Source: a virus (lineage: Duplodnaviria > Caudoviricetes). From it: a DNA stretch of 64,000 nucleotides. The notes under the pieces are model-generated. The model did no database searches and was not told the DNA's origin. It saw only the letters and a list, made by a program, of their open reading frames with translations. This document shows, one piece after another, positions 14,332 through 47,510 of this stretch. Position numbers and translations under genes: made by a program. The DNA is taken from positions 192,001-256,000 of the IMG/VR virus record IMGVR_UViG_3300015050_001523; one strand, written 5' to 3'. Each line of letters opens with the position of its first letter. Position 1 is the stretch's first letter.

Positions 14332-14371
14332 TGTAGTCCATGCTACCACAGCTACACAAACTAAGCAACAT

Positions 14372-32026: not shown

Positions 32027-33955
32027 ATGGACTTCACAAAAAAATCATTTCCACAAATTACTAGAATAGAAATTCCTAAAGACACTCAAATAATTTGGGT
32101 AAGCGATCTCTTTGTTGAAGATTATGTTGGTGGAGCAGAATTAACATCTGAAGCTTTGATTCAATCAAGTCCATTGAATATTTTTAAACTTCATTCAAAA
32201 GATGTAACAATGGATTTATTACAAGAAGGCCAAGATAAGTTTTGGATTTTCGGGAATTTCTTTAATCTTGATCTCAACATTATCCCAGCAATTGTAGTTA
32301 ATATGAAATATTCAATTATTGAATATGATTATAAATTCTGTAAGTACAGATCTCCAGAAAAACATGAAATGCAAGAAAAGACTCCTTGTAATTGTTCAAA
32401 TGAAGATCATGGCAAATTAATTGCTGCATTTTATTTGGGTTCAAAGCATCTTTGGTGGATGAGCGAAAAACAGATGGAAATTTACCATAATAAATTTCCA
32501 TCTTTAAAAGAAAATAAAAACACAGTTCTTTCTTCTGTTTTTGATGATAAAACCCTTGCTACAATTAAATTACTAAGAGAAAATGCAAAAGAAAAAAATA
32601 GAAAAGGATGGATTGTACTTGGTAGTAATTCATGGATAAAGGGATTTGAAGATGCGAAAGAGTATTGTGAAAATAATCATTTGGATTATAAGGTTTTGTG
32701 GAATCTTCCTTACGAGGTCGTCTTACAGGAATTATCTGAGGCAGAAGGGCACGTATATTTTCCAAGAGGAAATGACACATGTCCAAGAATGGTCATCGAA
32801 GCAAAGCTTTTAGGCACTAAACTAATCCTGAACGATTTCGTGCAGCATAAAGACGAAGAATGGTTCAATCCAAAAGCTGACGAAGATGACGAAATAACAC
32901 AAATAGAACAATATCTTTACGCTGCACGAGATTGGTTTTGGAATGGAGTAAAATCTGATATTGATTATGTTCCAACAATTTCTGGGTATACAACAACAAG
33001 AAATTGTATATCTCAAAATTATCCATTTGAATCTTCAATATTGTCTTTATTAGATTTTTGTGATGAAGTTGTTGTAATGGATGGTGGCTCTTCTGATGGA
33101 ACCTATCAATTATTAAAAGAATGGGAACAAAAAGAACCAAAATTAAAAATCTATAGTGCAGAATTAGATTGGAATTCCAAAAGATTCGCTATTTTTGATG
33201 GAATGTTGAAGTCTATGGCTAGAGAGAAATGTTCTATGGATTTTTGTTGGCAAAGTGATGTTGATGAAGTGATTCATGAAGATCATATTGAAAAAATCCA
33301 TAAGCTTGTTAAGAATTTTCCTTCAAATGTTGATTTACTTGCCCTTCCAGTGATAGAGTATTGGGGAGGAAAAGATAAGATTAGAATGGATATAAATCCA
33401 TGGAAATGGAGATTGTCGAGAAATAAAAAATATATATGCCATGGAGTTCCTGGGCATTTGAGAGTACAAGATGGTAACGAATATTATTCTAAAATGGGGA
33501 GCGATGGTTGCGACTATATTCATCGAGATACATTAGATTTGATTCCTTTTGCTAACTTTTATACAGCGGAACATGAATTAGCAAGACGCCAATCTTTAAA
33601 AGGTGAACCAATTAAAGAAAATTATCAAACTTGGTTTAATCTTGTTGTTGAAAATCTTCCGTGTGTATACCATTTTTCATGGTGGGATATTGAAAGAAAA
33701 ATAAAAACATATAAAAATTATTGGCAAAGACATTGGGAAAGTCTTTTTAATATTGAAACTGAAGATAATTCAGAGAATAACAAATTTTTTAATAAACCAT
33801 GGTCAGAAGTTTCAGATGAAGAAATAAAAGAAAAGGCAATTGAATTATCTGAAAAAACTGGCGGGTGGATTTTTCATGACAAATGGAATGGACAAACTTT
33901 GCCACATCTAACAATAGAAAAAGACATGCCAAAATATATAAAAAATTGGGTCTAA
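32027..33955 (+). CDS. Bifunctional glycosyltransferase (GT-B-like N-half plus GT2-like C-half)
   Basis: DTCPRMVIEAKLLG; then ISGYTTTRN..DEVVVMDGGSSDGT..QSDVDE. Confidence 0.8.
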   Translation: MDFTKKSFPQITRIEIPKDTQIIWVSDLFVEDYVGGAELTSEALIQSSPLNIFKLHSKDVTMDLLQEGQDKFWIFGNFFNLDLNIIPAIVVNMKYSIIEYDYKFCKYRSPEKHEMQEKTPCNCSNEDHGKLIAAFYLGSKHLWWMSEKQMEIYHNKFPSLKENKNTVLSSVFDDKTLATIKLLRENAKEKNRKGWIVLGSNSWIKGFEDAKEYCENNHLDYKVLWNLPYEVVLQELSEAEGHVYFPRGNDTCPRMVIEAKLLGTKLILNDFVQHKDEEWFNPKADEDDEITQIEQYLYAARDWFWNGVKSDIDYVPTISGYTTTRNCISQNYPFESSILSLLDFCDEVVVMDGGSSDGTYQLLKEWEQKEPKLKIYSAELDWNSKRFAIFDGMLKSMAREKCSMDFCWQSDVDEVIHEDHIEKIHKLVKNFPSNVDLLALPVIEYWGGKDKIRMDINPWKWRLSRNKKYICHGVPGHLRVQDGNEYYSKMGSDGCDYIHRDTLDLIPFANFYTAEHELARRQSLKGEPIKENYQTWFNLVVENLPCVYHFSWWDIERKIKTYKNYWQRHWESLFNIETEDNSENNKFFNKPWSEVSDEEIKEKAIELSEKTGGWIFHDKWNGQTLPHLTIEKDMPKYIKNWV

Positions 33956-33968
33956 CATGTGATAATAT

Positions 33969-34745
33969 TTGTCGATGTCAAATAGATTTGTATTTGTAGT
34001 TCCCTGCTTCAACGCAGAAAAAACGATTGAAAGAATGCTTATGAGCGTTTTCCTTCAAACTTATGATAATTGGCTTATCTTAATTGCTGATGATATGAGC
34101 ACTGATAGAACAATCTCAAAAATTCAAGAAACTTGTATGAGATTTAATGTTCCTTGGCAGAATTATGAATATGAACTCGGTCGTAATATTTGGCTAAATG
34201 AAAAAAAGGTTCTTTATTGGAAAAACAATGAAAAACATTGGGAAGTTAAAAATGTTCTCAAGATGATTAATTCAGAAGTTGTAAAGGACAATGATATTAT
34301 TTGTCGTCTTGATGGGGATGATTTCCTTTGTAATCTTTGCGCTCTTAAAGATATCAATTTTGCTTATAATGAAACAAATGCCGAATGTCTTTGGACAGCT
34401 CATCGATGGTCAGATACATGGCAAAATATTTCAGATGCTTTGCCTGTTGATGCGAATGTCTACGAGTACAGATGGGTAACATCTCATTTTAAAACATTTA
34501 GAAAAAATTTGATTACAGATGTAAATGATGAAAATTTCCGTGGAATGGATGGAGAATATATAAAAAGAGCTGGAGATCAGGCAATTTATCTTCCTGTTTT
34601 ACATAAATCAAAAAGAAGAGTATTCCTCCCAACTGTAACGTATTATTATACAATAAATCTAAGCCCAGAAACATTCAAATCAGAAGATGCAAAATTTCAA
34701 TTAGAAGAGTCCAATTATTTGCGTAAAAGAGGCTATGTAGAGTAG
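33969..34745 (+). CDS. Glycosyltransferase family 2
   Basis: VVPCFNAEKTIER..ADDMSTDRT..RLDGDD. Confidence 0.9.
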   Translation: MSMSNRFVFVVPCFNAEKTIERMLMSVFLQTYDNWLILIADDMSTDRTISKIQETCMRFNVPWQNYEYELGRNIWLNEKKVLYWKNNEKHWEVKNVLKMINSEVVKDNDIICRLDGDDFLCNLCALKDINFAYNETNAECLWTAHRWSDTWQNISDALPVDANVYEYRWVTSHFKTFRKNLITDVNDENFRGMDGEYIKRAGDQAIYLPVLHKSKRRVFLPTVTYYYTINLSPETFKSEDAKFQLEESNYLRKRGYVE

Positions 34746-34755
34746 GAGTTTATAG

Positions 34756-35082
34756 ATGAAATATATATATTTTCATAATGCTATTTTTAATAAAGGACGT
34801 CATCTAACAATTAGAAAAGGATCCAAATGGTATCAATCAATTTCTCAAGGAGAAATTTTAACTCTTGTAGATATGGAGACTGGTGGAAGTTCTAAAACAG
34901 CAAAAGTTCTAAGAATAGAAGTAATGAATTTTCAAGATATTCCTGAAGATATTCTTAAATTGTCGTTAAATCCCGAATGTAAAACAAAAAAGGGTCTTTT
35001 GAATAATATGAAAAGTATATATTTGGACTTTAGCCCTGAAAAAGATGAAGTTAGTTTGATTTTTTTTGAGATTAATGAATAA
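34756..35082 (+). CDS. ASCH/PUA-like domain protein
   Basis: LTIRKG..ISQGEIL...AKVLRIEVMNFQDIPE. Confidence 0.6.
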   Translation: MKYIYFHNAIFNKGRHLTIRKGSKWYQSISQGEILTLVDMETGGSSKTAKVLRIEVMNFQDIPEDILKLSLNPECKTKKGLLNNMKSIYLDFSPEKDEVSLIFFEINE

Positions 35083-35109
35083 AACCTTTTAAATACAAGG
35101 AATTAAAAT

Positions 35110-36057
35110 ATGAAAATATATTTTGATAATGTTGCTTTCTCTTCTTCTTCAGGTCCAAATTCATTTGGAAAAAGATTATCTGATCAATTTATTAAAATGG
35201 GACATGAAATTGTAAAAGATGGAGAAGAACATGATGTTTTTTTGTCCTTTATTCAAAGAAATAAAATCCCATATAAAAATGCCAAAACTGTTTTGCGACT
35301 TGATGGAATCTGGTTTAAGCCAGAAAATTTTGAAGAAAATAATAAAAAAATAAAAGAAGCTTATTTGTCTTATGATTATGTTATTTTCCAAAGTTATTTT
35401 GATAAGGCAATGATGGAAAAACATTTTGGAGAGAGAGAAGGATGCTCAGTAATCCATAATGGAATAGAGATTACTAAAAAAAATATTATTCATCAAATAA
35501 AACATTCAAATGAGAAGATCTTTGTTTGTTCTGCTAATTGGCATCCTCAAAAAAGACTAAAAGAAAATATTGATTTATTTAATCAAATAAGAAAAAAATT
35601 AAATAAAGATGGAGAAGATGCACGCCTTTATATTTTAGGAATGTGCCATGATATTGAAAATATAAACATTGATAGTTTTGATAATGTATTTTATTTGGGA
35701 CATCAAAATCATGAAACATGTTTAAGATTTTATGCAACCGCTGATTATTTTATACATCTAGCATGGTTGGACCATTGTCCAAATGTAGTAGTAGAAGCCT
35801 TATCTCAAGGATGCCCAGTAATTTGTACAGATAGTGGCGGAACTAAAGAAATAGTAAGAAATTCGGGAATAATTATCCCAGAAACGAAACCATATAATTT
35901 TGAATTAACAGATTATGATTGTCCTTATAATGTTGATTTTTCAACATTTGAATTACCTAAATTAAGGCCAATTGTAAATTCAGAATATCTTGAGATCAGC
36001 AAAGTTGCTGAAAATTATATAAATGTATTTAAAGGAATAAAATATGCAATCACCTGA
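35110..36057 (+). CDS. Glycosyltransferase GT4-like
   Basis: VIHNGI, ANWHPQKR, LDHCPNVVVEALSQGCPVI. Confidence 0.9.
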   Translation: MKIYFDNVAFSSSSGPNSFGKRLSDQFIKMGHEIVKDGEEHDVFLSFIQRNKIPYKNAKTVLRLDGIWFKPENFEENNKKIKEAYLSYDYVIFQSYFDKAMMEKHFGEREGCSVIHNGIEITKKNIIHQIKHSNEKIFVCSANWHPQKRLKENIDLFNQIRKKLNKDGEDARLYILGMCHDIENINIDSFDNVFYLGHQNHETCLRFYATADYFIHLAWLDHCPNVVVEALSQGCPVICTDSGGTKEIVRNSGIIIPETKPYNFELTDYDCPYNVDFSTFELPKLRPIVNSEYLEISKVAENYINVFKGIKYAIT

Positions 36058-36307
36058 ACAATTAAGAGACGATAAATATAGATCAATACTTCAATTTGAA
36101 ACAAAAAAATTGAAAAATTTAATAAAAATTCAAGAAAGAATGATGCTTCTTATGTCATGTCTTGAATTTGATAAAGAAAATGAAGAAGAAGAGAGTGAAG
36201 AATATGAAGATGAGGATGGGAATGGAGAAAGCCCAATACATAGTGAATTATTTACATTGATGGAACTCTATAAAGTAATTATTAGTAAAGTTGGACCTGA
36301 ATATTAG
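36044..36307 (+). CDS. Small protein with acidic tract
   Basis: ENEEEESEEYEDEDG. Confidence 0.6.
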   Translation: MQSPEQLRDDKYRSILQFETKKLKNLIKIQERMMLLMSCLEFDKENEEEESEEYEDEDGNGESPIHSELFTLMELYKVIISKVGPEY

Positions 36308-37207
36308 ATGGAAAAATTGTTAGTAAATAGGAAGCCTGTAGATGGTCCTTGGGGCGGCGGGAATTTATTTGTTCGAGCCTTATGTGAAAATGCGCCACTT
36401 TATGGCTATGAAATAACTCATAAAATAGAACCAGGCATAAAAAAAATAGTTTTAGTTGACCCGCGATATGATGAACTTGGTATCTCTGCAAAGGAAATTC
36501 TTGAATATAAAAAGAAAAATCCAAATGTAAAAGTTTTGCATAGAGTAAATGAATGTGATGCAAGAAAATCTACAAAGGACATAGATCATTTATTAAAAGA
36601 ATGTTTTGATCTAATAGATGATAAAATTGTTTTTATTTCTTCATGGCTTAAGGATTACCATTCTTTAAGTTCAGATAATCAATCTGTAATCTATAATGGA
36701 ACAAATAATAAATGGCATTATCAAAGTAATAATAAAAATAACAATCAGAAAATTAAAATTTTAGTTCATCATTGGAGCGATAATATAATGAAGAACAAAT
36801 TCACTCATAAAATTGATGAATTTGTTGGGAAAAATTCAGATAAGTATGAATTTACTTATATTGGAAGAGCGCCAGCAGGATTAAATCATACAAAAGTTAT
36901 AAACCCTTTATTTGGTCAGGAACTTGGAGAAGAATTAAGAAAACATGATGTCTATATTAATAGTTCTTTATGGGATCCTGCTCCAAATTCCATAACAGAA
37001 GCATTGGCAGTAAATTTACCAACTTATGTATACAAGGATGCTGGTGGGGCTTGTGAAATGGTTGGAGAAGACCATGTTTATTCTAGTTGGGAAGATTTAG
37101 AGTCATTGCTTCTTGGCAGAATTTTTGAAAAAAATAAAAATGCCATACAAATAAATGATTGGTCAAAACAAATAGAAAGTTATTTTGAAATTCTAGATGC
37201 ATTATGA
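36308..37207 (+). CDS. Glycosyltransferase GT4-like
   Basis: GPWGGGNLF, VIYNG, WDPAPNSITEALA. Confidence 0.85.
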   Translation: MEKLLVNRKPVDGPWGGGNLFVRALCENAPLYGYEITHKIEPGIKKIVLVDPRYDELGISAKEILEYKKKNPNVKVLHRVNECDARKSTKDIDHLLKECFDLIDDKIVFISSWLKDYHSLSSDNQSVIYNGTNNKWHYQSNNKNNNQKIKILVHHWSDNIMKNKFTHKIDEFVGKNSDKYEFTYIGRAPAGLNHTKVINPLFGQELGEELRKHDVYINSSLWDPAPNSITEALAVNLPTYVYKDAGGACEMVGEDHVYSSWEDLESLLLGRIFEKNKNAIQINDWSKQIESYFEILDAL

Positions 37208-37938
37208 AAGGTGCGATTATAGGAACTGGATATTGGGGAAAGAAATTATATAAATTTTTCCCCAAAGAAAGTATTATTGGCTATATTAATAATGGAAATT
37301 CTTTAATTCCCGAATTAAACAAAATCTCTTTTGAAGAGGCATTAGATAAAGTTGATTATTTTATAATAAGTTGCCCAATAGAGCATTTGTCAAAATACGG
37401 AATAATGGCACTTGAAAATAATAAACATATATTTATAGAGAAACCAGGTTCAATTGATATTGACGATCTTCAAAAGATGATTGATTTATCAAAAAAAAAT
37501 AATTTGGTTTCCTTAGTAAATTATAAATTTATAAAAGATTCAAACATTCAAAAAATAAATAATTCTTCTATAATCAGTTTAGAATGGAATAAATATGGTT
37601 CATTTAATAATGATATTAAGTTAAACTTATTGACTCATCATCTAGCTGTATTTATATTTATTTATGGAATAAACAATATTGGTGTTTTTGCACAAGAAGA
37701 TAAATTAACTTGTGAATTTGGAAAGATTGCAATATCCAAAATTGACAGAACAATTAAAGATAAAGATAATCATTTTCATAGAATTTATAATAATGGAAAA
37801 TACCATCATATGGATTCTGATGATGTTCTTATGGCTAAGCAAGTATATGACTTTTTTAATTCAATAAAATTAGGAAAGTCACCTGAATGCGATCTTTGTT
37901 TGAGTTTGGATGTATTGAGATTAATTTATGAAATATAA
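37204..37938 (+). CDS. Gfo/Idh/MocA-family oxidoreductase
   Basis: GAIIGTGYWG; KHIFIEKP. Confidence 0.85.
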   Translation: MKGAIIGTGYWGKKLYKFFPKESIIGYINNGNSLIPELNKISFEEALDKVDYFIISCPIEHLSKYGIMALENNKHIFIEKPGSIDIDDLQKMIDLSKKNNLVSLVNYKFIKDSNIQKINNSSIISLEWNKYGSFNNDIKLNLLTHHLAVFIFIYGINNIGVFAQEDKLTCEFGKIAISKIDRTIKDKDNHFHRIYNNGKYHHMDSDDVLMAKQVYDFFNSIKLGKSPECDLCLSLDVLRLIYEI

Positions 37939-38974
37939 AATAGCTGTTATAGGTGGTGGAATATTCGGAATAACATCTGCTTTATTTCTAGATCAAAAAG
38001 GTCATGATGTTTATTTATTTGAAAAAAATGAATCGTTACTAACAGAAGCCTCATTTGGTAATCAGTTTAGATTGCATAGAGGCTATCATTATCCAAGAAG
38101 TCCAAAAACTGTTTCTAATTTATTAAAAAGCTCAATTGAATTTGAAAAATTTTATGACTTAGCAATAAAAAAAGATTGCGAACATTATTATTGTATTGCA
38201 AGTTCAAATAGTCTTATAACTCCAAATAATTATTTGAAATTTTGTGATGAAAATAATCTTGAATATGAAATTGTAAAAAATGCTGATTTTGTAAAAAATG
38301 TTGATTTAACTATTAAAGTTAAAGAAAACTTAATAGATTATCAAATTTTAAAATTATTATGTTATAAAAAAATAACATCTTCACAAATAAAAACTAGATT
38401 TAATACTAGATTTAAAAAATCAAATATTCTAGATTTTGATATTGTTGTTAATTGCTCTTATAAAGATATAAATTTTATTTCAGAATCAGTTAAGAACTAT
38501 CAATATGAGTTATGTGAAAAGATAATGGTAAAAGTGCCTGACTCTTTATCTAATAAGAGCATTGTTATTATGGATGGCCCATTTATGTGTATTGATCCAT
38601 TCGCAAAACCTAATTTTTCTCTTTTGGGAAATGTTGTTCATGCAATTCATTCATCAAATACTGGGGTGCAAGCTATTATTCCTAATGAATATGAAAAATA
38701 TTTGCAAAATATAGAATATTCTGAATCGATAAAAATCGATAAAAAATCAAACTTTGATAAATTTATTGAAACAGGTAAAGTTTACATCCCAGATATGGAA
38801 AAAATAGAATATATAGGTTCGAAAATGGTAGTTAGGGCTGTACTTCCAAATGTTGAAAAAACTGATGAAAGACCAACAATTGTAACAATGAAAGATAATA
38901 TTATTGATGTTTTTTCTGGTAAGATCGATACTTGTATCTCGGCTGCAAGGTCCGTAATTTCATATTTAGAGTAA
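37928..38974 (+). CDS. FAD-dependent oxidoreductase (DAO-like)
   Basis: IAVIGGGIFG..FEK..ASFGNQFRLHRGYHYPRS. Confidence 0.88.
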   Translation: MKYKIAVIGGGIFGITSALFLDQKGHDVYLFEKNESLLTEASFGNQFRLHRGYHYPRSPKTVSNLLKSSIEFEKFYDLAIKKDCEHYYCIASSNSLITPNNYLKFCDENNLEYEIVKNADFVKNVDLTIKVKENLIDYQILKLLCYKKITSSQIKTRFNTRFKKSNILDFDIVVNCSYKDINFISESVKNYQYELCEKIMVKVPDSLSNKSIVIMDGPFMCIDPFAKPNFSLLGNVVHAIHSSNTGVQAIIPNEYEKYLQNIEYSESIKIDKKSNFDKFIETGKVYIPDMEKIEYIGSKMVVRAVLPNVEKTDERPTIVTMKDNIIDVFSGKIDTCISAARSVISYLE

Positions 38975-39028
38975 ATTTTGTGATGATCTATAGTAAGTTA
39001 TACAGTTAGAGATGGAGCCTTCTAAGTT

Positions 39029-39955
39029 ATGAAAGTATATGTTCATGGACCTAATGAAAATTGGATAGTAGATCGATTTACTGATGAGTTTAGAACTTAT
39101 TGCTCAGATATTTCAGTAAATAATCCATATGATGCAGACATAATTTGGCTTATTGCAGATTGGTGTTACAACCAACTGCCATATGATTTATTAAAAAAGA
39201 AAAAGGTTTTTACTACAAATTTTCATATTGTTCCTGAAAAGTTCAATTCAAATTCTAGAATAGACTTCATGAAAAGAGATGTGATAACTGATCTTTATCA
39301 TTCATCCTGTAATAAAACAGAAGAATATTTGAGAGATGTTGGAGCAACAAAGCCCATTTGGACAGGACTAACTTGGGTTAATGGAAGTTTGTGGAAAAAG
39401 CTTGAGAATAAAAAAGAAATAAGAAGAGGATTTGGAATTCATGATGATGAATTTGTTATTGGTAGTTTTCAAAGGGATACAGAAGGTCATGATTTAAAAA
39501 GTCCAAAATTGGAAAAAGGACCAGATATCTTTTGCGACTATGTTGAAAAGGTCGCAAAAGATAAAAAAGTTGTTGTTCTTTTGGGTGGGTGGAGACGCGA
39601 ATATGTGATCAATCGACTAAACAATTCCAATATTCGCTTTATATTTTTAAAACTTCCAAATTTTGAAACATTAAATAAAATGTACAATGCTCTTGATTTA
39701 TATGTTGTTGGTTCTCGTTATGAAGGTGGTCCACAATCTATTTTGGAGTGTGCTGCAATAGAAACTCCAATCATTTCAACGGATGTTGGTGTAGCTTCTC
39801 ATATACTGAGCAATGAAAGCATTTCAAAAGAAATAAGTGCAGAATCTCTTTTGAAATGCTTGCCAAATATAGATTATGCAAAAAAGAAAGTTCAAGAATT
39901 ATTAATCCCTCAAGGATTTAATATTTTTAGAGAAAAATTGAAAGAATTATTATGA
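39029..39955 (+). CDS. Glycosyltransferase GT4-like
   Basis: IGSFQRD..EKGPD; SRYEGGPQSILECAA. Confidence 0.88.
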   Translation: MKVYVHGPNENWIVDRFTDEFRTYCSDISVNNPYDADIIWLIADWCYNQLPYDLLKKKKVFTTNFHIVPEKFNSNSRIDFMKRDVITDLYHSSCNKTEEYLRDVGATKPIWTGLTWVNGSLWKKLENKKEIRRGFGIHDDEFVIGSFQRDTEGHDLKSPKLEKGPDIFCDYVEKVAKDKKVVVLLGGWRREYVINRLNNSNIRFIFLKLPNFETLNKMYNALDLYVVGSRYEGGPQSILECAAIETPIISTDVGVASHILSNESISKEISAESLLKCLPNIDYAKKKVQELLIPQGFNIFREKLKELL

Positions 39956-41001
39956 AAAAAAAATGTTTAATAACGGGGATATCAGGGCAAGATGGTGCTT
40001 ATCTATCGAAGATCTTGCTTGAAAAAGGATATGAAGTGTATGGGGCAGAAAGACGCAGTGCTTCAAGTGAGCATTGGAGATTGAAAGAGCTAGGGATTCT
40101 TGACAAAATTAAAATGGTGCCCTTTGAGTTGCTTGAACATAGCAATATAATAAAAACATTAGAAAACATCATGCCAGACGAGATTTACAATCTTGCAGCC
40201 ATGAGCTTTGTTGGTACTTCTTTCGATCAACCAATTTTTACATGCGATGTAAATGGACTTGGTGTTGTTCGGTTGCTTGAGTCCATAAAAATGATTTGCC
40301 CTAAAGCAAAATTTTATCAAGCAAGCACTTCTGAAATGTTTGGTTCGTCATATTTTATTGGAGAAAATTATGGAAAACGATATCATTATCAAAATGAAGC
40401 AACACCATTTCATCCAAGAAGTCCATATGGCTGCGCAAAACTTCTTGCTCATTCTATGGTTGTAAATTATAGAGAAGCATATGGAATATTTGCTTGTTCA
40501 GGAATATTATTTAATCATGAAAGTCCTTTTCGTGGAGATGAATTTGTAACAAAGAAAATTACAAAAACTTTGGCCAAAATTCAGAATGGAGAAGATATTG
40601 TTCTTGAATTGGGGAATATTCATGCAAGAAGAGATTGGGGACATGCTGAAGATTATTGTCTTGGAATGTGGCTTATGTTGCAACAAGATAAACCTGATGA
40701 TTTTGTGCTTTCATCAGGAGAAACAAGAAGCGTTAAAGAATTTATAAATGTAGCTGCAAAATATTTAAATTGGAATATCCGATGGGATGGAGAAGGACTT
40801 GATGAAAAAGCCTTTCTTGTAAAAGATGATAAAGAAAAGCTAATTGTAAAAATAAATAAAGATTTTTATAGGCCATCAGATGTAGAGTATCTTTGTGGTA
40901 GTTCTGAAAAGGCAAAAAAATATTTGAATTGGGTTCCAAAATATTCTTTTGAAGATTTAGTTAGCTCAATGATTGATTACGATCTGATTTGCAGTGTATA
41001 A
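39952..41001 (+). CDS. gmd: GDP-mannose 4,6-dehydratase
   Basis: ITGISGQDGAYL, YNLAAMSFV, YQASTSEMFG, PRSPYGCAK, GILFNHESP, RDWGHAEDY. Confidence 0.96.
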   Translation: MKKKCLITGISGQDGAYLSKILLEKGYEVYGAERRSASSEHWRLKELGILDKIKMVPFELLEHSNIIKTLENIMPDEIYNLAAMSFVGTSFDQPIFTCDVNGLGVVRLLESIKMICPKAKFYQASTSEMFGSSYFIGENYGKRYHYQNEATPFHPRSPYGCAKLLAHSMVVNYREAYGIFACSGILFNHESPFRGDEFVTKKITKTLAKIQNGEDIVLELGNIHARRDWGHAEDYCLGMWLMLQQDKPDDFVLSSGETRSVKEFINVAAKYLNWNIRWDGEGLDEKAFLVKDDKEKLIVKINKDFYRPSDVEYLCGSSEKAKKYLNWVPKYSFEDLVSSMIDYDLICSV

Positions 41002-41016
41002 AGATGTAAAATAAAA

Positions 41017-41595
41017 ATGAAAATACCGGACAAATATACACATAAAGCAACAATAACAAATAAATTAAGAGAAGATTTAATTAATTTATCTAAAGAGATT
41101 GATAATAATTCATATCTTGAAATTGGCTTTGATAAAGGATTTACTATAGCATCTTTGGTTCCATATTTTAAATCAATCTATGGAATAGATATAAACAAAG
41201 ATAGGCATAATGAAGCAAATATTTTATTGTCAGAAAATAAGAATATAACTCTTATTTATGGAGACTCAACCAGTATTCCATTAGGTAGTTATAGTGTTAT
41301 TTTAATTGACGCAAATCATAGTTATAAAAATGTTTTGTTTGATACATATAACATTTTAGTAAAAAATATCAATGAAGAACCTTTTGCAATTGTTTATCAT
41401 GATTATGGACTTGTTGAAGCAGGAGTTAAGAAGTTTTGCGATCAATATTTTTTAGACTTTATGAAACCTGTAGGAGAAAAGTCTGGATGGAATCCTTTAG
41501 GCGGGAAAACAAATGATCAAGAAGCCATGGTTTGTGTATTTGATGCAGACCTAAAAGAAAAATATTTAGATATTTTTAAAGGAGTTTTAGAATGA
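41017..41595 (+). CDS. Class I SAM methyltransferase (Methyltransf_24-like)
   Basis: YLEIG..GID..GDS..LIDANHSY..YHDY. Confidence 0.82.
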   Translation: MKIPDKYTHKATITNKLREDLINLSKEIDNNSYLEIGFDKGFTIASLVPYFKSIYGIDINKDRHNEANILLSENKNITLIYGDSTSIPLGSYSVILIDANHSYKNVLFDTYNILVKNINEEPFAIVYHDYGLVEAGVKKFCDQYFLDFMKPVGEKSGWNPLGGKTNDQEAMVCVFDADLKEKYLDIFKGVLE

Positions 41596-42134
41596 CGTAC
41601 ATTGATTTGAATTCTATGTCAATAACAAATAAATTAAAAGATGATTTAATTAAATTTTCAAAAGGGTTTAAAAAGGCGTCTTTTCTTCAATTAGGGTTTG
41701 ATGAAAATTTTATTATATTGGATTTGGCTACACATTTTAAATCTTTGTATGGAATTGATGACAGTCAAGATTTATACAATCAAGGCACAAATATTATTAA
41801 TAAAAACAAAACAAAAAATATTATGATTTTTTGTGGAAATTCTACAAGAATTCCATTAAATCGATATGATGTTGTGCTTATAAATTCATCAAAAAGTGTA
41901 ATGACAGACACAATAAATGTATTTTCAAAAAACTTTAATAATGATCCATTTTTAATCATTTATAATGGATATAACTTTACAAATGATGTTAAGGTTTTCT
42001 GCGATGAGAACTTTAAAAATTTTATGATTCCTGTTGGAATAACAGATTCATCAGGACCTGAAGCTGTTGCTTGTGCATTTAATGGAGATACAAAGAAAAA
42101 ATATTTAAATTTGCTCAAAGAAAAAAACATATAA
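41592..42134 (+). CDS. Degenerate paralogue of the preceding methyltransferase
   Basis: Colinear (ITNKL.DDLI, FKS.YGID, IPL..Y), but LQLG, INSSK and YNGY replace the conserved motifs. Confidence 0.7.
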   Translation: MTYIDLNSMSITNKLKDDLIKFSKGFKKASFLQLGFDENFIILDLATHFKSLYGIDDSQDLYNQGTNIINKNKTKNIMIFCGNSTRIPLNRYDVVLINSSKSVMTDTINVFSKNFNNDPFLIIYNGYNFTNDVKVFCDENFKNFMIPVGITDSSGPEAVACAFNGDTKKKYLNLLKEKNI

Positions 42135-42143
42135 GGAAAAAAC

Positions 42144-43031
42144 ATGAAGGATATTATTGGAATAATAGGGCAGGGATTTGTAGGAAGTGCATTACGCAAA
42201 GGGATGGAAAAAACATGTGCAACATATGTTTATGATAAATTCAAAACAGAGTTACTTCAAAATGTTTCTGAAGTAGTAAACATGTTGCACCACCCAGAAT
42301 TAAAAGAAAAAGACAAAATAGTATTTGTATGTGTTCCAACTCCAATGTTTTCAAATGGAAAATGTGACATTTCAATTGTAGAGTCTGTTGTTAAAGAAAT
42401 TGATGAAGCTTCTTCTAAATTTAAACAAAAAACAATTGTTGTAATAAAGTCAACAATTCCGCCTGGAACTACAGAATATTTAGATAATGCCTTTGATAAT
42501 GTTAGTGTGATCTTTAATCCTGAATTTTTGAGAGAAGCTTCTCCTTTTGAAGATTTTATAAATCAAAATAGAATAATCCTTGGTGGAAAATTATCAACAA
42601 TTAAAAAAGTTGCAAATCTTTATCGTAATAGATTTCCAAATGTTCCAATTATTGGAATGGAATCAAAAGAAGCAGAAATGGTAAAGTATGTAACAAATTG
42701 CTTTCTTGCTACAAAAGTTAGCTTTGCAAATGAAATATTTCAAATTTGTAAAAAAATGGACATTTCATATGAGGGAGTTATTTCAGCGGCAATATATGAC
42801 GAAAGACTTGGAAAAAGTCATTGGTCTGTACCTGGACCTGATGGTTCTTTTGGGTATGGCGGACATTGCTTTCCAAAAGATCTTAATGCATTAACTTATA
42901 TGTCTAAAATGTTAGGAATAGAGCCTGTTATGTTAGGGGCTACATGGAAAAAGAATTTAGAAGTAAGAACCCCAGAAGAAAGAGATTGGGAAAAAATGAA
43001 AGGCCGAGCTGTTTCGATAGAGGGATTATAA
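42144..43031 (+). CDS. UDP-glucose/GDP-mannose 6-dehydrogenase family, lacking the C-terminal domain
   Basis: GIIGQGFVG, FVCVPTP, IKSTIPPG, NPEFLRE, EMVKYVTN, GYGGHCFPKD. Confidence 0.9.
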   Translation: MKDIIGIIGQGFVGSALRKGMEKTCATYVYDKFKTELLQNVSEVVNMLHHPELKEKDKIVFVCVPTPMFSNGKCDISIVESVVKEIDEASSKFKQKTIVVIKSTIPPGTTEYLDNAFDNVSVIFNPEFLREASPFEDFINQNRIILGGKLSTIKKVANLYRNRFPNVPIIGMESKEAEMVKYVTNCFLATKVSFANEIFQICKKMDISYEGVISAAIYDERLGKSHWSVPGPDGSFGYGGHCFPKDLNALTYMSKMLGIEPVMLGATWKKNLEVRTPEERDWEKMKGRAVSIEGL

Positions 43032-43033
43032 AT

Positions 43034-43597
43034 ATGAGAAATGGATTAATTATTGATGAACATGGAGCCAAGAGATATTACTTAAATGACAAGCTTCATA
43101 GAGAAGACGGCCCTGCTGTTGAATGGAAAAATGGAAATAAATGGTGGTATCGCCATGGAAGACTTCATAGAGAGGATGGGCCTGCATTCGAAGAAGGTTG
43201 GGATGGATCCAAGTATTGGTATATAAATGGAGAACGTCATCGAGAAGATGGTCCTGCAATTGAATTTGCAAACGGAGTTAAGTTTTATTATTTAAATAAT
43301 ATTGAATATTCTGAAGAAGATTTTTGGGAAGAAATTAAAAAAAGAAAATCTCTTAATTTTATTCTCAAGAATTATTTCAAAACTAGAAGAACATTTAGCA
43401 ACATTTCATTTCCAATCGTTCGTCGAGTATTTAGCCAATTAATTCAAAAGGATTTTATAAGTATACAACCTATGGAGCTGCCATCAAGTATATTCTTCTT
43501 TGAATATACCTATGACAGTAATCCTTCTATAGATTCTTCAATTCAAGATAATAGTTGTGTTATAAATGAAACTGAAAACGTAAATATATGTTCTTGA
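43034..43597 (+). CDS. HREDGPA-repeat protein with a C-terminal major-capsid (gp23 Gol-region)-like segment
   Basis: Three HREDGPA repeats, SEEDFW..SLNFILKNY, then FPIVRRVFSQLIQKDFISIQPMELPS; ATG at 43034. Confidence 0.8.
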   Translation: MRNGLIIDEHGAKRYYLNDKLHREDGPAVEWKNGNKWWYRHGRLHREDGPAFEEGWDGSKYWYINGERHREDGPAIEFANGVKFYYLNNIEYSEEDFWEEIKKRKSLNFILKNYFKTRRTFSNISFPIVRRVFSQLIQKDFISIQPMELPSSIFFFEYTYDSNPSIDSSIQDNSCVINETENVNICS

Positions 43598-43647
43598 ATT
43601 CGAATGAAATGGTAAAATCTCTATTATTTTTTGTAAAATAAGTTGTA

Positions 43648-44547
43648 ATGTATAGTCTTATAAACTGTGAAATAGATCAATGTTCAGTAGAGACTTTTGA
43701 TTTATATTTAAATAATGTTTGTAAAGATATTTCTTGTGAACAATTATTATATAATAATGGAAAAGATAGATGTATAAATACAATTTCATTTTCTGAATTA
43801 AAAGATCATGTAGAGTGTTCATATCGCCATAAATTAAAATACGTTGATAAAGTCAACATGTTCGAAGAAAATGTAAATACAAACTTTGGAACAGCGTTGC
43901 ATGAGGCATGTGAAACTTACCTAAAGACAAGAGAAATGAAATATGAATTGGCTCTGGACTATATTGTTCAGGCTTGGGAAAAACATAACCTGCCTGATCT
44001 TGGAAATTGGCTTAAAGAAGCTAATGCTTTGCTTGAGGCAGTACCAGAATTTTTAGATGAGAGATTTCCTGGATGGGAATGTTTTTCTGCTGAAGAAGAT
44101 TTGTTAGAAAAAATAGAAGGAGAACATTCTTTAGATTTTACATTTAAAGGGTTCATTGATGGAGTTATCAAGTGCAATGATCAATATACAATTATTGATT
44201 GGAAAACTTCTGGGAAAGGATGGAACAAATATAAAAAAGAAGATGAAAATCTTAAAATGCAATTAGTTCTTTATGCCAAATTTTGGGGGCAAAAGCATAA
44301 TATTCCACTTTCTAAAATTAGAGTAGGATTTGTAGTTTTAAATAGAGACTTAGAGAATCCTGAAAGAATAGAGTTTTTTTCATTTCCGATTGAAGAATCT
44401 GGAGTTAAAAAAACTTTAAATATATTAAATAATTCTCTAAACATGTCAAAAAAAGGCATGTATTTTAAACCTTGGAAATATAAAATTTCGTACCAACAGG
44501 GAAGTTGCAGGTTTTGTGATTATAATGAAACTCCTCATTGTCCGTAA
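43648..44547 (+). CDS. PD-(D/E)xK nuclease, Cas4/AddB-like with Fe-S cysteines
   Basis: SFSEL..EC, FGTALHE, FKGFIDG, IIDWKT, QLVLY, CRFCDY..HCP. Confidence 0.88.
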   Translation: MYSLINCEIDQCSVETFDLYLNNVCKDISCEQLLYNNGKDRCINTISFSELKDHVECSYRHKLKYVDKVNMFEENVNTNFGTALHEACETYLKTREMKYELALDYIVQAWEKHNLPDLGNWLKEANALLEAVPEFLDERFPGWECFSAEEDLLEKIEGEHSLDFTFKGFIDGVIKCNDQYTIIDWKTSGKGWNKYKKEDENLKMQLVLYAKFWGQKHNIPLSKIRVGFVVLNRDLENPERIEFFSFPIEESGVKKTLNILNNSLNMSKKGMYFKPWKYKISYQQGSCRFCDYNETPHCP

Positions 44548-44562
44548 TAATTTAAGGAAAAT

Positions 44563-44943
44563 ATGACAGATAGAGATTTTATTTATTGGCTTCACGGATA
44601 TTTTGAAATATCTGAAAACTTAACTTTGAGTAATGAACAAATTTATATGATTAAAAAACATATAAGCCTTGTCCAAAAAGAAAGAAAAAACTTCTCAGAC
44701 CATAGCACTGTTATTGAATGGATTAATGAAAAAATACATAATTGGGATAATTTAGCTAATAATGATTTGAAATTGGCGATTGTAACTGAGATATCGAATA
44801 AACTTAATCTTGTAATGGCAAGAATTGCTATAGATTCTTTTGTTTTCCAAAGTCAACAATCTTCAGAAACCTTTTTTAAAAGCAATAAATCAATTTCTTC
44901 CAACTCTGTTGATTCGGAGATAATAACTCATATAACTTGTTAA
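44563..44943 (+). CDS. Phage hypothetical protein
   Basis: MTDRDFIYWLHGYFEI motif. Confidence 0.7.
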   Translation: MTDRDFIYWLHGYFEISENLTLSNEQIYMIKKHISLVQKERKNFSDHSTVIEWINEKIHNWDNLANNDLKLAIVTEISNKLNLVMARIAIDSFVFQSQQSSETFFKSNKSISSNSVDSEIITHITC

Positions 44944-44966
44944 TATAATAAATCTAAAGGAAAATA

Positions 44967-46244
44967 GTGAAAAAAAAGAAAATTTTATTTATCTCGGACC
45001 ACCCTCTTTCTACGTCAGGAGTCGGAACCCAGTCGCGTTACCTTATAGAAGGACTTCTACGAACAGGGAAATACCAATTTAAATGTTTAGGAGCCGCAAT
45101 TAAGCATGGCGACTATCGAATGGTAAGTGTTCCAGCAAATCCAGATGATCCAAAAAAGTGGGATGATGGAGATTGGCTAATTAGGCCAATTGATGGATTT
45201 GGAGATAAAAATTTAATGAGGCTTTTGTTGGCACAAGAAAAACCAGATGCAGTTTTTTTGTTTACTGATCCAAGGTTTTTTATGCAGCACTTTGAAATTG
45301 AAGATGAAATTCATCAAGTTTGTCCAATTGTATGGTGGCATGTTTGGGATAATGATCCTTGGCCAGCATACAATAAGCCAATTTATGATAGCATCGACCT
45401 AATCAATTGTCATAGTAATAAAACTTATGAAATGACGGTAGAGCATTATCCTGAAATTACAAACTTTATTCCACATGCTGTACCTCCTGAAATTTTTCAT
45501 CCACTAAAAGAACAAGAGATAATCAAGGCAAAAGAAAATGTATTAGGTGCTGACAAAAAGAATCATTTTGTTGCATTTTGGATAAATAGAAATGCTAGAC
45601 GAAAATTGCCTGCCGATCTTATTGAAGCATGGAGCATGTTCTTAGATCAATTAGAAAAAGAATATGGACATAGAGATGCAACATTGTTAATGCATACAGA
45701 TCCATTAGATCAAGAAGGTCCAAATTTATTTAAAATTGTTGAGCATTTTAATTTGACTAAAAATGTTGTTTTCTCAACTGAACGAATAGGATTCCCTCAA
45801 ATCAACATTATGCATAATATTGCTGATACTTGCATCAATTTTGCATATAATGAAGGTTTTGGATTGGGAACTTTGGAATCTATGATGACAGGCACTCCAA
45901 TAATTGCACTAAAGACTGGAGGCTTGACTAGACAAGTTGAAGACTATAGAGACGGAAGCCACAATGGAATAGCTCTAGAGTCTGAAATAAGAAGATTGGT
46001 TGGAAGTCAGTCTGTTCCATACATTTATGAAGATCACGTATCAAATAAGACAGTGGCAGATGCTATTATGAAGATGTATGAATTCGGACCTGAAAAAAGA
46101 AAAGAACTTGGACAAAAAGCTTTAGCATATGCTAAATTTGAGTTTAATATTGATAACACAATAAAAAATTGGGACAAAACATTATTTGAAACAATTGAAA
46201 ATTGGAAAACTAGAAGAGGCATGTGGGAATGTCAAAAGGTTTAA
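44967..46244 (+). CDS. Glycosyltransferase GT4-like
   Basis: SDHPLSTSGVG, NRNARRK, NEGFGLGTLESMMTGTPII; GTG start. Confidence 0.9.
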   Translation: MKKKKILFISDHPLSTSGVGTQSRYLIEGLLRTGKYQFKCLGAAIKHGDYRMVSVPANPDDPKKWDDGDWLIRPIDGFGDKNLMRLLLAQEKPDAVFLFTDPRFFMQHFEIEDEIHQVCPIVWWHVWDNDPWPAYNKPIYDSIDLINCHSNKTYEMTVEHYPEITNFIPHAVPPEIFHPLKEQEIIKAKENVLGADKKNHFVAFWINRNARRKLPADLIEAWSMFLDQLEKEYGHRDATLLMHTDPLDQEGPNLFKIVEHFNLTKNVVFSTERIGFPQINIMHNIADTCINFAYNEGFGLGTLESMMTGTPIIALKTGGLTRQVEDYRDGSHNGIALESEIRRLVGSQSVPYIYEDHVSNKTVADAIMKMYEFGPEKRKELGQKALAYAKFEFNIDNTIKNWDKTLFETIENWKTRRGMWECQKV

Positions 46245-46259
46245 AATAAGGGATTTATT

Positions 46260-47510
46260 ATGAAAAAGAAAGTAATATTGCGTGCTCCACTTCTAACCCA
46301 GTCAGGATATGGAGTTCATTCACGTCAAATTTTTAGGTGGCTTGAATCAAATATAGAAAAATTTGAAACATTTGTAAATGTTGTTCCATGGGGAAATACA
46401 ACTTGGTTTATCGATCCAGATCGATTAAATGGGCTTATTGGAAGAATAATGAACAAAAGTGGTAATTACCCATCAAGTTTTGATATTTCAATTCAAGTAC
46501 AGTTGCCAAATGAATGGGATTCTAATTTGGCAAGATTCAATGTTGGAGTAACAGCAGCAGTTGAAACTGATAAGGCAAATCCTGCATGGGCTTATAATGT
46601 AAAGTCTATGGACTTAGTAATTGTTCCTTCTGAACATGCAAAGTTATCTCTAACAAATTCAGGATGTTCAGAGGCAAAAATTAAAGTTGTTCCTGAAGCC
46701 TTTATTGATGAAATTCTAAATGAAGAAAAAAATGATCTAAATTTAGAATTTGAGACAAATTTTAATTTTCTTATATTTGGCCAATTTACTGGCAATAATG
46801 AAGAAAATGATAGAAAGAATACATATAATACTCTAAAATGGATTTGTGAATCATTTAAGAATGATAAAGATGTTGGAATTGTAATTAAAACAAATTTTTC
46901 TAGAAATTGCCAATTTGATAGAAATATAACAAAAGATATTCTTAAAAATACATTAAGCAAATTTAGAGACGAGAGAAAGTTGCCTCCAGTTTATTTTATC
47001 CATGGAGAGATGAGTGACAAGGAAATCGCTTCCCTATATGTCCATCCAAAAATAAAAGCACTTGTGTCACTTACAAGGGGAGAAGGATTTGGACTTCCAA
47101 CTCTGGAAGCTGCGGCATCAGGACTTCCTGTAATCGCTACAAATTGGTCTGGCCATCTTGATTTTATGAATAAGGGAAAATTTTTAGGAGTTGATTATTC
47201 ATTAAAAGAAATTTCAAGTTCAAGAGTAGACAAAAGAATATGTCCTTCATGCAATGGTTCTGGAAAAAATGGACATATTCAAATATGCAGCATTTGCGGA
47301 GGAACAGGGCACACTCAGATATTTATGGAAGGTTCAAAATGGGCGGAACCAAAAGAGATTTCTGCTAAAAAAATTCTAAAAAAATTCAGAGAGATGCCAA
47401 ATGCCCCTAAAGAATGGGCAGTTGAGCTTTCGACTATTATTAGAAAAGAATATTCACAAGATGCTATCGAAAAGCATTATGATCGAGTATTCTCTGATAT
47501 AGTCGTATGA
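46260..47510 (+). CDS. Glycosyltransferase GT4-like with an inserted CxxCxGxG zinc finger
   Basis: SGYGVHSR, GEGFGLPTLEAAASGLPVIAT, CPSCNGSG..CSICGGTG. Confidence 0.9.
   Translation: MKKKVILRAPLLTQSGYGVHSRQIFRWLESNIEKFETFVNVVPWGNTTWFIDPDRLNGLIGRIMNKSGNYPSSFDISIQVQLPNEWDSNLARFNVGVTAAVETDKANPAWAYNVKSMDLVIVPSEHAKLSLTNSGCSEAKIKVVPEAFIDEILNEEKNDLNLEFETNFNFLIFGQFTGNNEENDRKNTYNTLKWICESFKNDKDVGIVIKTNFSRNCQFDRNITKDILKNTLSKFRDERKLPPVYFIHGEMSDKEIASLYVHPKIKALVSLTRGEGFGLPTLEAAASGLPVIATNWSGHLDFMNKGKFLGVDYSLKEISSSRVDKRICPSCNGSGKNGHIQICSICGGTGHTQIFMEGSKWAEPKEISAKKILKKFREMPNAPKEWAVELSTIIRKEYSQDAIEKHYDRVFSDIVV

What the first reader, a model, noticed from the sequence alone, without database searches (positions are those of the whole stretch)
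43394..43513. Gol-like major-capsid peptide grafted onto a HREDGPA-repeat protein (capsid decoy or EF-Tu-binding tag?)
Seen: the paralogue at 13823..14107 ends at SLKTILLNYARSIK*. This copy continues past SLNFILKNY into FSNISFPIVRRVFSQLIQKDFISIQPMELPSSIFFFEYTY. Established (sequence quoted from memory): the T4 gp23 Gol peptide, residues 94-122 (AVMGMVRRAIPNLIAFDICGVQPMNSPTG), binds EF-Tu and activates the Lit protease. The 29-mer at 43403-43489 aligns to it without gaps with 10 identities (VRR, LI, D, QPM, P), and gp23-type capsids of large phages carry FPIVRRVF..QPM.LP. Inference: exactly the defence-triggering/EF-Tu-binding capsid epitope has been excised and displayed on a repeat scaffold. 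It could decoy capsid-sensing immunity (Lit-like), recruit EF-Tu, or dock the protein on proheads.
Basis: partly seen in the sequence, partly recalled or inferred. Interest (0 to 1): 0.85.

Follow-up and report, generated by a model that had tools for sequence, protein, structure and literature searches.

The report
Capsid "Gol" peptide grafted onto repeat protein
A small accessory gene of an uncultured 322-kb T4-like freshwater phage really does carry, at its end, an old copy of the most conserved stretch of the phage's own capsid protein (the stretch that in T4 binds the host factor EF-Tu and triggers a host defence); what the copied stretch does is untested.

Summary
Observation confirmed and extended. 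Window 43034-43597 (+) encodes a 187-aa protein. It has three HREDGPA (MORN_2/DUF6745-like) repeats, a long helix and a flexible tail.

- **Homology:** residues 119-172 of the tail are homologous to residues 77-131 of the phage's own gp23-type capsid protein (26/55 identical, E 1e-15). Pfam Gp23 scores above its cut-off, but only over profile positions 4-48.
- **Not a chimera:** a run contig spans the junction. An orthologous fusion in the same gene order lies on three other assemblies.
- **Age and constraint:** the copy is old (65% nucleotide identity, composition ameliorated). It keeps 14 of 17 near-invariant module positions. The ortholog has largely lost the module.
- **Context:** about 35 paralogues in the genome lack such a tail. 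The gene sits inside a 15-kb glycosylation island.
- **Wider class:** at least ten other complete small phage genes join the same module to unrelated N-termini. This scan has met the kind before on other DNA (e1-4035658/9, e1-4475782). I found nothing in print.

Function is untested: a partner-binding mimic (EF-Tu/chaperonin or capsid) is my best guess, about 0.35. An EF-Tu co-fold gave no answer.

The parts
43034..43597 (+). Whole gene (187 aa, P0002): HREDGPA-repeat protein with a capsid-derived tail
   Evidence: ORF and translation. GAGGG box 9 nt upstream of the ATG. Start lies 2 nt after the stop of the upstream gene.
43034..43309 (+). Repeat domain, residues 1-92: three HREDGPA beta-hairpin repeats (MORN_2/DUF6745-like)
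   Evidence: AF2 pLDDT 93-98. Atlas structural match TM 0.87 to a DUF6745 cluster and 0.81 to a MORN_2 cluster. More than 7,600 homologous clusters, many carrying PF20530. About 35 paralogues in this genome.
43310..43387 (+). Family-typical C-terminal helix, residues 93-118 (YSEEDFW..KSLNFILKNY); the junction to capsid-derived sequence lies at about residues 115-118
   Evidence: AF2 helix 94-123. Most paralogues stop within about 5-25 residues after the KSLN-type motif, and none has a capsid-like tail.
43388..43549 (+). Capsid-derived module, residues 119-172: homologue of own MCP residues 77-131 (= T4 gp23 89-143; N-arm/N-fist end, first core strand)
   Evidence: BLASTP E 1e-15, 26/55 identical. 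Pfam Gp23 profile 4-48. 14 of 17 near-invariant module columns kept. 65% nucleotide identity to the MCP gene segment; GC3 0.22 against 0.35. AF2 pLDDT 50-68 with no secondary structure.
43403..43489 (+). The 29 residues (124-152) that align without gaps to the T4 Gol peptide (gp23 94-122)
   Evidence: Transitive alignment through the own MCP to PDB 6uzc gp23; 10/29 identical.
43561..43593 (+). 33 nt at the end of the gene (codons for INETENVNICS), identical at the DNA level in the relative; contains TATAAATG; probably constrained as DNA or RNA for the downstream nuclease gene
   Evidence: DNA alignment with L084/L085: 33/33 identical here and about 43/44 in 43607-43650, against about 75% elsewhere.
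42144..43031 (+). Upstream partner gene: UDP-glucose/GDP-mannose dehydrogenase; it travels with the fusion gene
   Evidence: Pfam. Its C-terminus also lies upstream of the orthologue in L084. Both genes are absent together from relative L083.
43648..44547 (+). Downstream PD-(D/E)XK nuclease gene (conserved synteny)
   Evidence: Pfam PF12705. The same neighbour lies in L084/L085.
32027..47510 (+). 15.5-kb glycosylation island in which the gene is embedded (7 glycosyltransferases, GDP-mannose 4,6-dehydratase, oxidoreductases, methyltransferase)
   Evidence: Pfam scans.
13823..14107 (-).
   Evidence: 47% identity, E 6e-32, ends at the KSL..ILLNY helix.

Best explanation
Shown: this is a chimeric phage accessory protein. 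One member of a family of about 35 HREDGPA (MORN_2/DUF6745-like) repeat mini-genes was joined long ago, in frame, to about 55 codons copied from a gp23-type major capsid gene of the same phage clade. Members of this family usually end shortly after a conserved C-terminal helix. The copied piece is the most conserved stretch of that capsid family. It covers the end of the N-arm and the first core strand, that is, the T4 Gol peptide plus flanks.

Inferred: the repeat domain and helix act as a folded handle, and the copied stretch hangs from them as a flexible linear peptide. The peptide works by mimicry: it engages whatever the same stretch of newly made capsid protein engages. My first choice is the host translation and folding machinery (EF-Tu, as shown for T4 Gol, or the chaperonin). 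My second choice is the phage's own prohead or capsid. Either would tether or titrate that partner during expression of the glycosylation island in which the gene sits.

The chimeric origin and the homology I hold at about 0.9. The mimicry mechanism is what the confidence figure prices.
For: Homology and boundaries.

Real junction:
- A Logan contig of run X1 covers 43303-43458 with no differences.
- The orthologue P0013 has the same architecture and the same UGDH-fusion-nuclease order on three independent assemblies.

Old event: 65% nucleotide identity to the own MCP gene, and GC3 ameliorated to that of the host gene.

Constraint:
- 14 of 17 near-invariant module columns are kept, and core identity to MCPs is 58%, like other module mini-proteins at 64%.
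- Both lineages keep 62 or more codons open in 33% GC DNA, and all three indels are in frame. Simulated neutral chance of both staying open is 0.04-0.10, times about 1/27 for the indels.

Display: AF2 gives a confident repeat domain and helix and a low-confidence extended tail. This fits T4, where gp23 residues before L106 are disordered in the prohead (PMC9546572).

Portability:
- At least ten other complete small ORFs in uncultured, mostly large, phages join Pfam Gp23 positions about 2-50 only to unrelated N-termini and end soon after.
- One such family (P0017/P0112) keeps its synteny at under 50% identity.

Precedent: a 29-residue Gol peptide alone binds EF-Tu domains II/III. [quoted passage not shown]
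Against: - No binding was shown; the EF-Tu co-fold gave no answer.
- Between the two orthologues the module evolves nearly neutrally (omega 0.71, against 0.36 in the repeat domain, over only 41 codons).
- The orthologue has lost FPIVRRVF and 11 of 17 key positions, so the module is dispensable in at least one lineage.
- The perfect conservation of the last 11 residues is at the DNA level, so it says nothing for the protein.
- Only two sequence clusters with this fusion exist among 5.8 billion.
- Keeping the frame open could serve something other than the peptide's sequence.
- A later check of a sister finding in this scan priced the mimicry reading at 13/100.
Confidence: 0.35

Rival explanations
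1. Evolutionary relic. Illegitimate recombination at the stop-less 3' end of an HREDGPA cassette captured a capsid-gene fragment. The tail is tolerated read-through with no function of its own and is slowly decaying.
For: - Tails after the KSLNYIL helix vary freely in length and sequence among about 35 paralogues.
- Omega is 0.71 in the module.
- The orthologue lost most of the module.
- Pfam score is only 25 bits, against 35-48 bits in other module proteins.
- Other capsid fragments lie scattered in small ORFs of this genome at 7.4-8.1 kb.
Against: - P0002 keeps 14/17 near-invariant positions while its orthologue keeps 6/17. This asymmetry is not expected if both drift.
- The open frame and the in-frame indels are unlikely under neutrality.
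- The same module is kept as the conserved core of many unrelated small proteins.
Confidence: 0.25
2. Capsid or prohead docking, or a role in capsid glycosylation. The module lets the protein sit on or in the phage's own capsid lattice or scaffold. Alternatively it serves as a capsid-like recognition or acceptor peptide for the glycosyltransferases encoded around it.
For: - In T4 this stretch contacts the scaffold core in the prohead. After expansion it makes inter-capsomer, Soc-site and portal contacts (PMC9546572).
- The gene is translationally adjacent to UGDH inside a 7-glycosyltransferase island, and the pair is kept or lost together.
- Independent module proteins P0119 and P0149 also lie inside sugar or glycosyltransferase clusters.
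- The other capsid-fragment mini-genes of this genome lie between two sugar-nucleotide epimerase genes.
Against: - Three or four of about nine contexts is suggestive only, because sugar genes are common in these phages.
- The genes next to P0119 and P0149 are not homologous to each other.
- In an assembled lattice the MCP's own stretch already fills the site.
- No glycosylation site or virion proteome is known.
Confidence: 0.2
3. Immune decoy. The displayed peptide binds a host sensor that reads the capsid protein (Lit-like, CapRel-like, Avs-like) without activating it, and so blunts abortive infection.
For: - The copied stretch is the one that the Lit system reads through EF-Tu (PMC3014915).
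- Capsid-sensing receptors are many and widespread (PMC9712102; bioRxiv 10.64898/2026.01.04.697583).
- The gene lies among accessory genes.
Against: - Free Gol activates Lit rather than blocking it (PMC3014915).
- Avs7 envelops the whole folded MCP, not a peptide (bioRxiv 10.64898/2026.01.04.697583).
- No capsid decoy was found in my literature searches.
- The host and its defences are unknown.
- The tail does not track the phage's own MCP at variable positions.
Confidence: 0.1
4. Assembly or annotation artefact: a chimeric contig or a wrong frame.
For: Several database proteins that join MCP pieces to cellular proteins look like assembly chimeras (P0010, P0069, P0030).
Against: - A junction-spanning contig from a separate assembly has no differences.
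- The orthologous fusion lies on three other assemblies with conserved flanks.
- There is a single open frame with no internal start before the module.
Confidence: 0.02

Closest known systems
Gol region of T4 gp23 (residues 94-122) in the e14 Lit / EF-Tu exclusion system
   Same: Homologous stretch of a gp23-type capsid protein, ungapped, 10/29 identical, including VRR, D, QPM and P. In T4 the isolated peptide is an autonomous EF-Tu-binding unit (PMC3014915).
   Different: Here the stretch is detached from the capsid protein and fused to a repeat protein. EF-Tu binding and protease activation were not shown. The host is unknown. The orthologue lacks the VRR half.
MORN_2 / DUF6745 repeat proteins (often annotated 'YwqK antitoxin-like') of large phages
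   Same: The N-terminal 114 residues: the same repeat, the same terminal helix, structural TM 0.81-0.87; about 35 paralogues in the genome.
   Different: Only this member (and its orthologue) among 7,677 scored clusters carries a Gp23 match. P0002 itself is below the Pfam cut-offs.
Small phage proteins that join a capsid or portal fragment to an unrelated handle
   Same: The same module (Pfam Gp23 positions about 2-50) at or near the C-terminus of a short protein that ends soon after the YTYG motif; complete ORFs in uncultured T4-like phages.
   Different: A different handle (HREDGPA repeats rather than a small beta-barrel or a short leader). The class has no described function, and I found no paper on it.
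T4 internal proteins with a capsid-targeting sequence; satellite-encoded scaffold or capsid mimics (SaPI CpmB, P4 Sid). Named from my own knowledge, not tested here.
   Same: What it might work like: a short peptide that borrows a capsid-assembly contact to place or redirect a protein.
   Different: No sequence relation. The module here is C-terminal and derived from the capsid protein itself. No packaging or size-redirection evidence.

Membership tests
Pfam PF07068 Gp23 (T4-type major capsid protein) | Profile match above the curated cut-off | tested here: met
   25.2 bits against 24.4; the same match appears in the genome search.
Pfam PF07068 Gp23 (T4-type major capsid protein) | Full HK97-fold body (profile positions about 50-376: P, A and insertion domains) | tested here: not met
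   The match covers profile positions 4-48 only, and the protein ends 23 residues later. The true MCP is a 624-aa gene at G000 285998-287872. So this is not a capsid protein.
Gol peptide (functional sense) | Homologous to T4 gp23 94-122 | tested here: met
   Ungapped transitive alignment, 10/29 identical. A direct search against PDB does not reach gp23.
Gol peptide (functional sense) | Binds EF-Tu (domains II/III, GDP form) | tested here: inconclusive
   Co-fold with E. coli EF-Tu gave no answer, score 0.00. That is no evidence either way, and the host EF-Tu is unknown.
Gol peptide (functional sense) | Activates Lit-type cleavage of EF-Tu | not testable with these tools
   Needs expression in lit+ and lit- cells.
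MORN_2 / DUF6745 repeat family | HMM match above the cut-off | tested here: not met
   DUF6745 scores 16.9 bits against 27. MORN_2 appears only in the paralogue, at E 0.5. NCBIfam gives nothing.
MORN_2 / DUF6745 repeat family | Same fold and clear sequence homology to family members | tested here: met
   Homologues at E down to 1e-73 carry PF20530 or PF07661. Structural TM is 0.87 and 0.81. AF2 shows beta-hairpin repeats with pLDDT above 90.
Capsid-fragment mini-proteins (undescribed class) | Short complete ORF = unrelated handle + Gp23 positions about 2-50 + short end, kept in relatives | tested here: met
   Architecture. The orthologue is in synteny. Comparable members were verified in their contigs.

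The most novel reading that the evidence does not exclude
The Gol/N-arm stretch of gp23-type capsid proteins is a portable, trans-acting peptide module. Large T4-like phages have captured it many times independently, onto at least a dozen unrelated handles. It hooks accessory proteins to the conserved partner of nascent capsid protein (EF-Tu or chaperonin, or the prohead). In this phage the hook has been recruited into the virion-glycosylation island. If so, the reason why Gol is the most conserved part of gp23 becomes testable with small soluble natural proteins.
Probability: 0.2. Interest if true: 0.85.

Novelty: new variant of a known kind. Interest (0 to 1): 0.6.

Why it matters
The Gol stretch is the classic example of a phage capsid epitope read by host immunity. 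It is also the most conserved part of T4-type capsid proteins, and the reason for that conservation has been open since about 2000. Two proposals are a general contact with EF-Tu and, as I recall, targeting to GroEL.

Natural, soluble proteins that carry only this stretch would be ready-made reagents for asking what it binds. This one has a well-folded handle and sits in a glycosylation island. If they act by mimicry, they would add a new kind of phage accessory function: self-derived peptide display.

If the tail is only a relic, the case still documents how stop-less repeat cassettes create chimeric genes in giant phage genomes.

Tried and rejected
- **EF-Tu co-fold:** E. coli EF-Tu with residues 115-175 gave no answer (score 0.00, partner pLDDT 27). 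This is not evidence either way.
- **Direct PDB search:** phmmer of the tail against PDB sequences gave no gp23 hit at E<=1. The link to T4 had to go through the own MCP.
- **Word-index searches:** searches for short proteins with the tail of P0002 or of P0013 returned only the queries.
- **Collection scans:** Metagenome-contig scans with a tail alignment and with the conserved 26-mer found no relative and no match. A viral contigs pattern scan for the conserved C-terminus gave 0 matches.
- **Other HREDGPA loci:** none of 76 viral loci with HREDGPA homologues has the tail.
- **Other long-tailed paralogues:** they were tested for pieces of other phage genes; none was found.
- **Neighbours of P0119 and P0149:** the 325-aa and 323-aa genes next to them are not homologous, so there is no conserved gene pair.
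- **Large contigs of P0119, P0045 and P0035:** a search for their MCPs failed because the records are not held.
- **Promoters and terminators:** sigma70-like and terminator scans and TATAAATA counts are not above chance, so expression timing is unknown.
- **Literature:** searches for stand-alone Gol or capsid fragments or capsid decoys found nothing pertinent.
- **Internal start:** an independent start for the module was rejected. There is no ATG, GTG or TTG in frame between residue 1 and M147 in front of the module.
- **CTS-like leader:** I considered a prohead-protease or capsid-targeting reading of the 'MKLKxII' leaders of other mini-genes and left it as an idea only. The same leader heads unrelated genes in L091.

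Full report
**What is there.** The window is bases 192001-256000 of a 322,518-bp IMG/VR virus record, 93% complete by CheckV. It is a roughly 33% GC, T4-like giant phage. Runs that hold parts of the stretch are freshwater and estuary metagenomes. The flagged bases lie in one ORF. Its real start is ATG 43034, two bases after the stop of a UDP-glucose/GDP-mannose dehydrogenase gene and 9 nt behind a GAGGG box. The product (P0002, 187 aa) has three parts in the AlphaFold2 model built on a 79-row alignment:
- residues 1-92 are beta-hairpin repeats with pLDDT 93-98;
- residues 94-123 are one long helix;
- residues 124-187 have pLDDT 49-68 and no secondary structure.

Residues 119-172 align to residues 77-131 of the phage's own major capsid protein (P0003, 624 aa, G000 285998-287872). 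There are 26/55 identities and one gap, E 1e-15. Pfam Gp23 matches above its curated cut-off, but only over profile positions 4-48 of 376. PHROG 138 'major head protein' also matches. An exhaustive phmmer of the 73-residue tail against 1.84 billion representatives gave 429 hits at E<=1e-3. Of the best 150 listed, every one I compared with the own MCP matched it. The HMMER alignment of the own MCP to solved T4 gp23 (6uzc) fixes the register at MCP n = T4 n+12. The copy runs from T4 89 to 143, so it is Gol plus 5 and 21 flanking residues. A direct search of the tail against PDB sequences does not reach gp23.

**It is not an artefact.** A 156-nt Logan contig of run X1 covers 43303-43458 without a difference and spans the junction. 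It may come from the same sample as the window, but it is a separate assembly. More telling is P0013 (157 aa), which is encoded on three other assemblies (JGI 3300042962, ENA ERZ28593591, ERZ22067504). It has the same architecture and the same neighbours: the dehydrogenase C-terminus 3 nt upstream and the PD-(D/E)XK nuclease downstream. A more distant relative (L083, nuclease 72% identical) lacks the dehydrogenase and the fusion gene together. One metatranscriptome contig matches 43054-43223 exactly. That is compatible with transcription but does not prove it.

**Where the two halves come from.** The N-terminal 114 residues belong to a very large, mostly viral repeat family.
- More than 7,600 clusters score at E<=1e-5, many carrying DUF6745 or MORN_2, and some are annotated 'YwqK antitoxin'.
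- Structural TM is 0.81-0.87 to such clusters.
- This genome alone has about 35 paralogues.
- Most end within about 5-25 residues after a conserved KSLNYILSN helix. A few run on into unrelated sequence, and none of those tails matches another gene of the phage.

This agrees with an earlier first-reader note that these cassettes have conserved DNA ends and no conserved stop (e1-5337410).

The capsid-derived half is old. It shares 65% nucleotide identity with the MCP gene segment, and its GC3 is 0.22, like the rest of the gene, against 0.35 in the MCP segment. At several variable positions it agrees with the clade consensus rather than with the present own MCP. So I see no sign of gene conversion with the own MCP.

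**Selection.** Take the 17 module columns that are nearly invariant both in capsid proteins and in module mini-proteins. P0002 keeps 14 of them and P0013 keeps 6. Between the two orthologues omega is 0.36 in the repeat domain and 0.71 in the module, over 41 codons. The perfect identity of the last 11 residues is matched by 33/33 identical bases and a nearly identical intergenic stretch up to the nuclease ATG. It therefore reflects a DNA or RNA constraint, not a protein one. Against pure drift there are two points. Both lineages keep the frame open through 62 variable codons in AT-rich DNA; the simulated neutral chance is 0.04-0.10. All three indels are in frame, about 1/27 by chance. My reading is that the module is still constrained on the P0002 branch and is decaying on the P0013 branch.

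**A wider class.** Among the best 150 representatives, about 19 are short proteins (69-181 aa). Each has an unrelated N-terminal part followed by the same module, and each ends soon after the YTYG motif. Ten tested by Pfam match Gp23 only at positions about 2-50, with 35-48 bits. I checked the genomic places, and these are complete internal ORFs of phage contigs:
- P0017 (four contigs) and P0112, both in front of a convergent NUDIX gene;
- P0100 (three contigs);
- P0022, P0108 and P0040;
- P0035 (seven contigs, next to an IF3 gene);
- P0045 (237-kb contig);
- P0080 (behind DNA polymerase III alpha);
- P0119 (127-kb and 319-kb contigs);
- P0149.

Module identity among them averages 58%, while their other parts are unrelated. 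In 268 deposited phage genomes that match the module, each has a single place, the capsid gene itself. I found no paper on detached copies. This scan has met the same kind on other DNA: a beta-barrel handle joined to capsid or portal pieces, and a Gol look-alike joined to an antitoxin-like tail (e1-4035658/9, e1-4475782). P0108, P0040 and P0119 look like the first of these.

**Context.** The gene lies inside a 15.5-kb island (32027-47510). The island has two GT2 and five GT1 glycosyltransferases, GDP-mannose 4,6-dehydratase, two oxidoreductases, a methyltransferase and the dehydrogenase. It sits directly before the baseplate genes. P0119 and P0149 also sit inside glycosyltransferase or sugar-synthesis clusters. 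The capsid-fragment mini-genes at 7.4-8.1 kb lie between two sugar-nucleotide epimerase/dehydratase genes. That makes three or four of about nine informative contexts. It is a lead, not a result, because sugar genes are frequent in these phages.

**How it most likely works.** Shown: a folded repeat handle with a helix carries a flexible copy of the capsid protein's most conserved peptide. The fusion is old, real and kept in frame.

Established elsewhere:
- In T4 the 29-residue Gol peptide by itself binds EF-Tu domains II/III, prefers the GDP form and thereby exposes EF-Tu to Lit.
- The region is the most conserved part of gp23, and a general gp23-EF-Tu contact has been proposed (PMC3014915).
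- In the unexpanded T4 head, residues before L106 are disordered, face inward and probably touch the scaffold. After expansion they form the N-arm and N-fist, with inter-capsomer, Soc-site and portal contacts (PMC9546572).
- From memory, not checked here: Snyder and Tarkowski (J Mol Biol 2005) reported that the gp23 N-terminus directs fused proteins to GroEL.

Inferred: the tail acts as a linear-motif mimic that binds what the nascent capsid stretch binds.

My odds:
- mimicry of a host translation or folding partner, the leading form of the mimicry reading: 0.35;
- relic: 0.25;
- capsid docking or a glycosylation role: 0.2;
- immune decoy: 0.1;
- artefact: 0.02.

A simple anti-Lit decoy is unlikely because free Gol activates Lit. 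Sensors such as Avs7 grip the whole folded MCP (bioRxiv 10.64898/2026.01.04.697583). The only binding computation I could run (EF-Tu) gave no answer.

**Verdict.** It is a new architecture within an undescribed but recurrent kind of phage mini-protein. It is of real interest to T4 and phage-defence specialists, but it has no demonstrated function.

Noticed in passing
whole genome G000 (e.g. window 13823-14107 -; G000 7-942, 48104-48740, 54261-55042, 69981-73417, 197464-198309): About 35 paralogous HREDGPA-repeat mini-genes are scattered over the 322-kb genome. They have near-fixed MKNGLI.. starts and KSLNYILSN helices. Their tails vary in length, including one with a transmembrane-like tail and one with a coiled-coil tail.
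   Followed up: partly
G000:C1 7428-8104 (L004:1106-1782; L105:6529-7503): Three tandem small ORFs share an M(K/N)LK(D/N)II leader. Two carry other pieces of the MCP: residues 387-431, and 559-586 followed by 390-430 in permuted order. They lie behind DNA polymerase III alpha and between two sugar-nucleotide epimerase/dehydratase genes.
   Followed up: partly
G000:C1 153564-154421 (-) (L005:1195-2052): A 285-aa ORF has a weak, partial gp23-like match (34% identity to MCP 361-428; Pfam Gp23 E 0.002). It may be a diverged or truncated capsid paralogue, or a vertex-protein relative.
   Followed up: no
window 43561-43650: 33 nt at the end of the fusion gene (containing TATAAATG) and the 44 nt before the nuclease ATG are almost identical in a relative whose flanks are only about 75% identical. 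This is a likely regulatory element for the PD-(D/E)XK nuclease gene.
   Followed up: partly
window 14107-14388 (-): A phage-encoded translation initiation factor IF-1 homologue (Pfam eIF-1a, E 1e-20). A different large phage that carries a module mini-protein (P0035) encodes an IF3 three genes upstream of it, about 0.65 kb away (L095).
   Followed up: no
L091:1936-3533: Unrelated neighbouring genes of another phage all begin MKL.(K/D)I.. (242-aa, 75-aa and 46-aa ORFs). A shared gene-start leader may mark recombination joints of mini-gene cassettes.
   Followed up: no
proteins P0010, P0030, P0069, P0135 (library hits): Database proteins join MCP N-terminal parts to pieces of cellular proteins (protease-like, oxidoreductase-like, ABC transporter, membrane protein). 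They are probably assembly chimeras and warn against reading every 'fusion' as real.
   Followed up: no
window 42144-43597 versus L083:3338-4828: The dehydrogenase gene and the fusion gene are present or absent as a two-gene unit between the conserved 180-aa ORF and the nuclease gene.
   Followed up: partly
window 43054-43223: A 170-nt contig from a freshwater metatranscriptome run (X2) is identical to the repeat part of the gene. This is compatible with expression in nature but is not proof.
   Followed up: no
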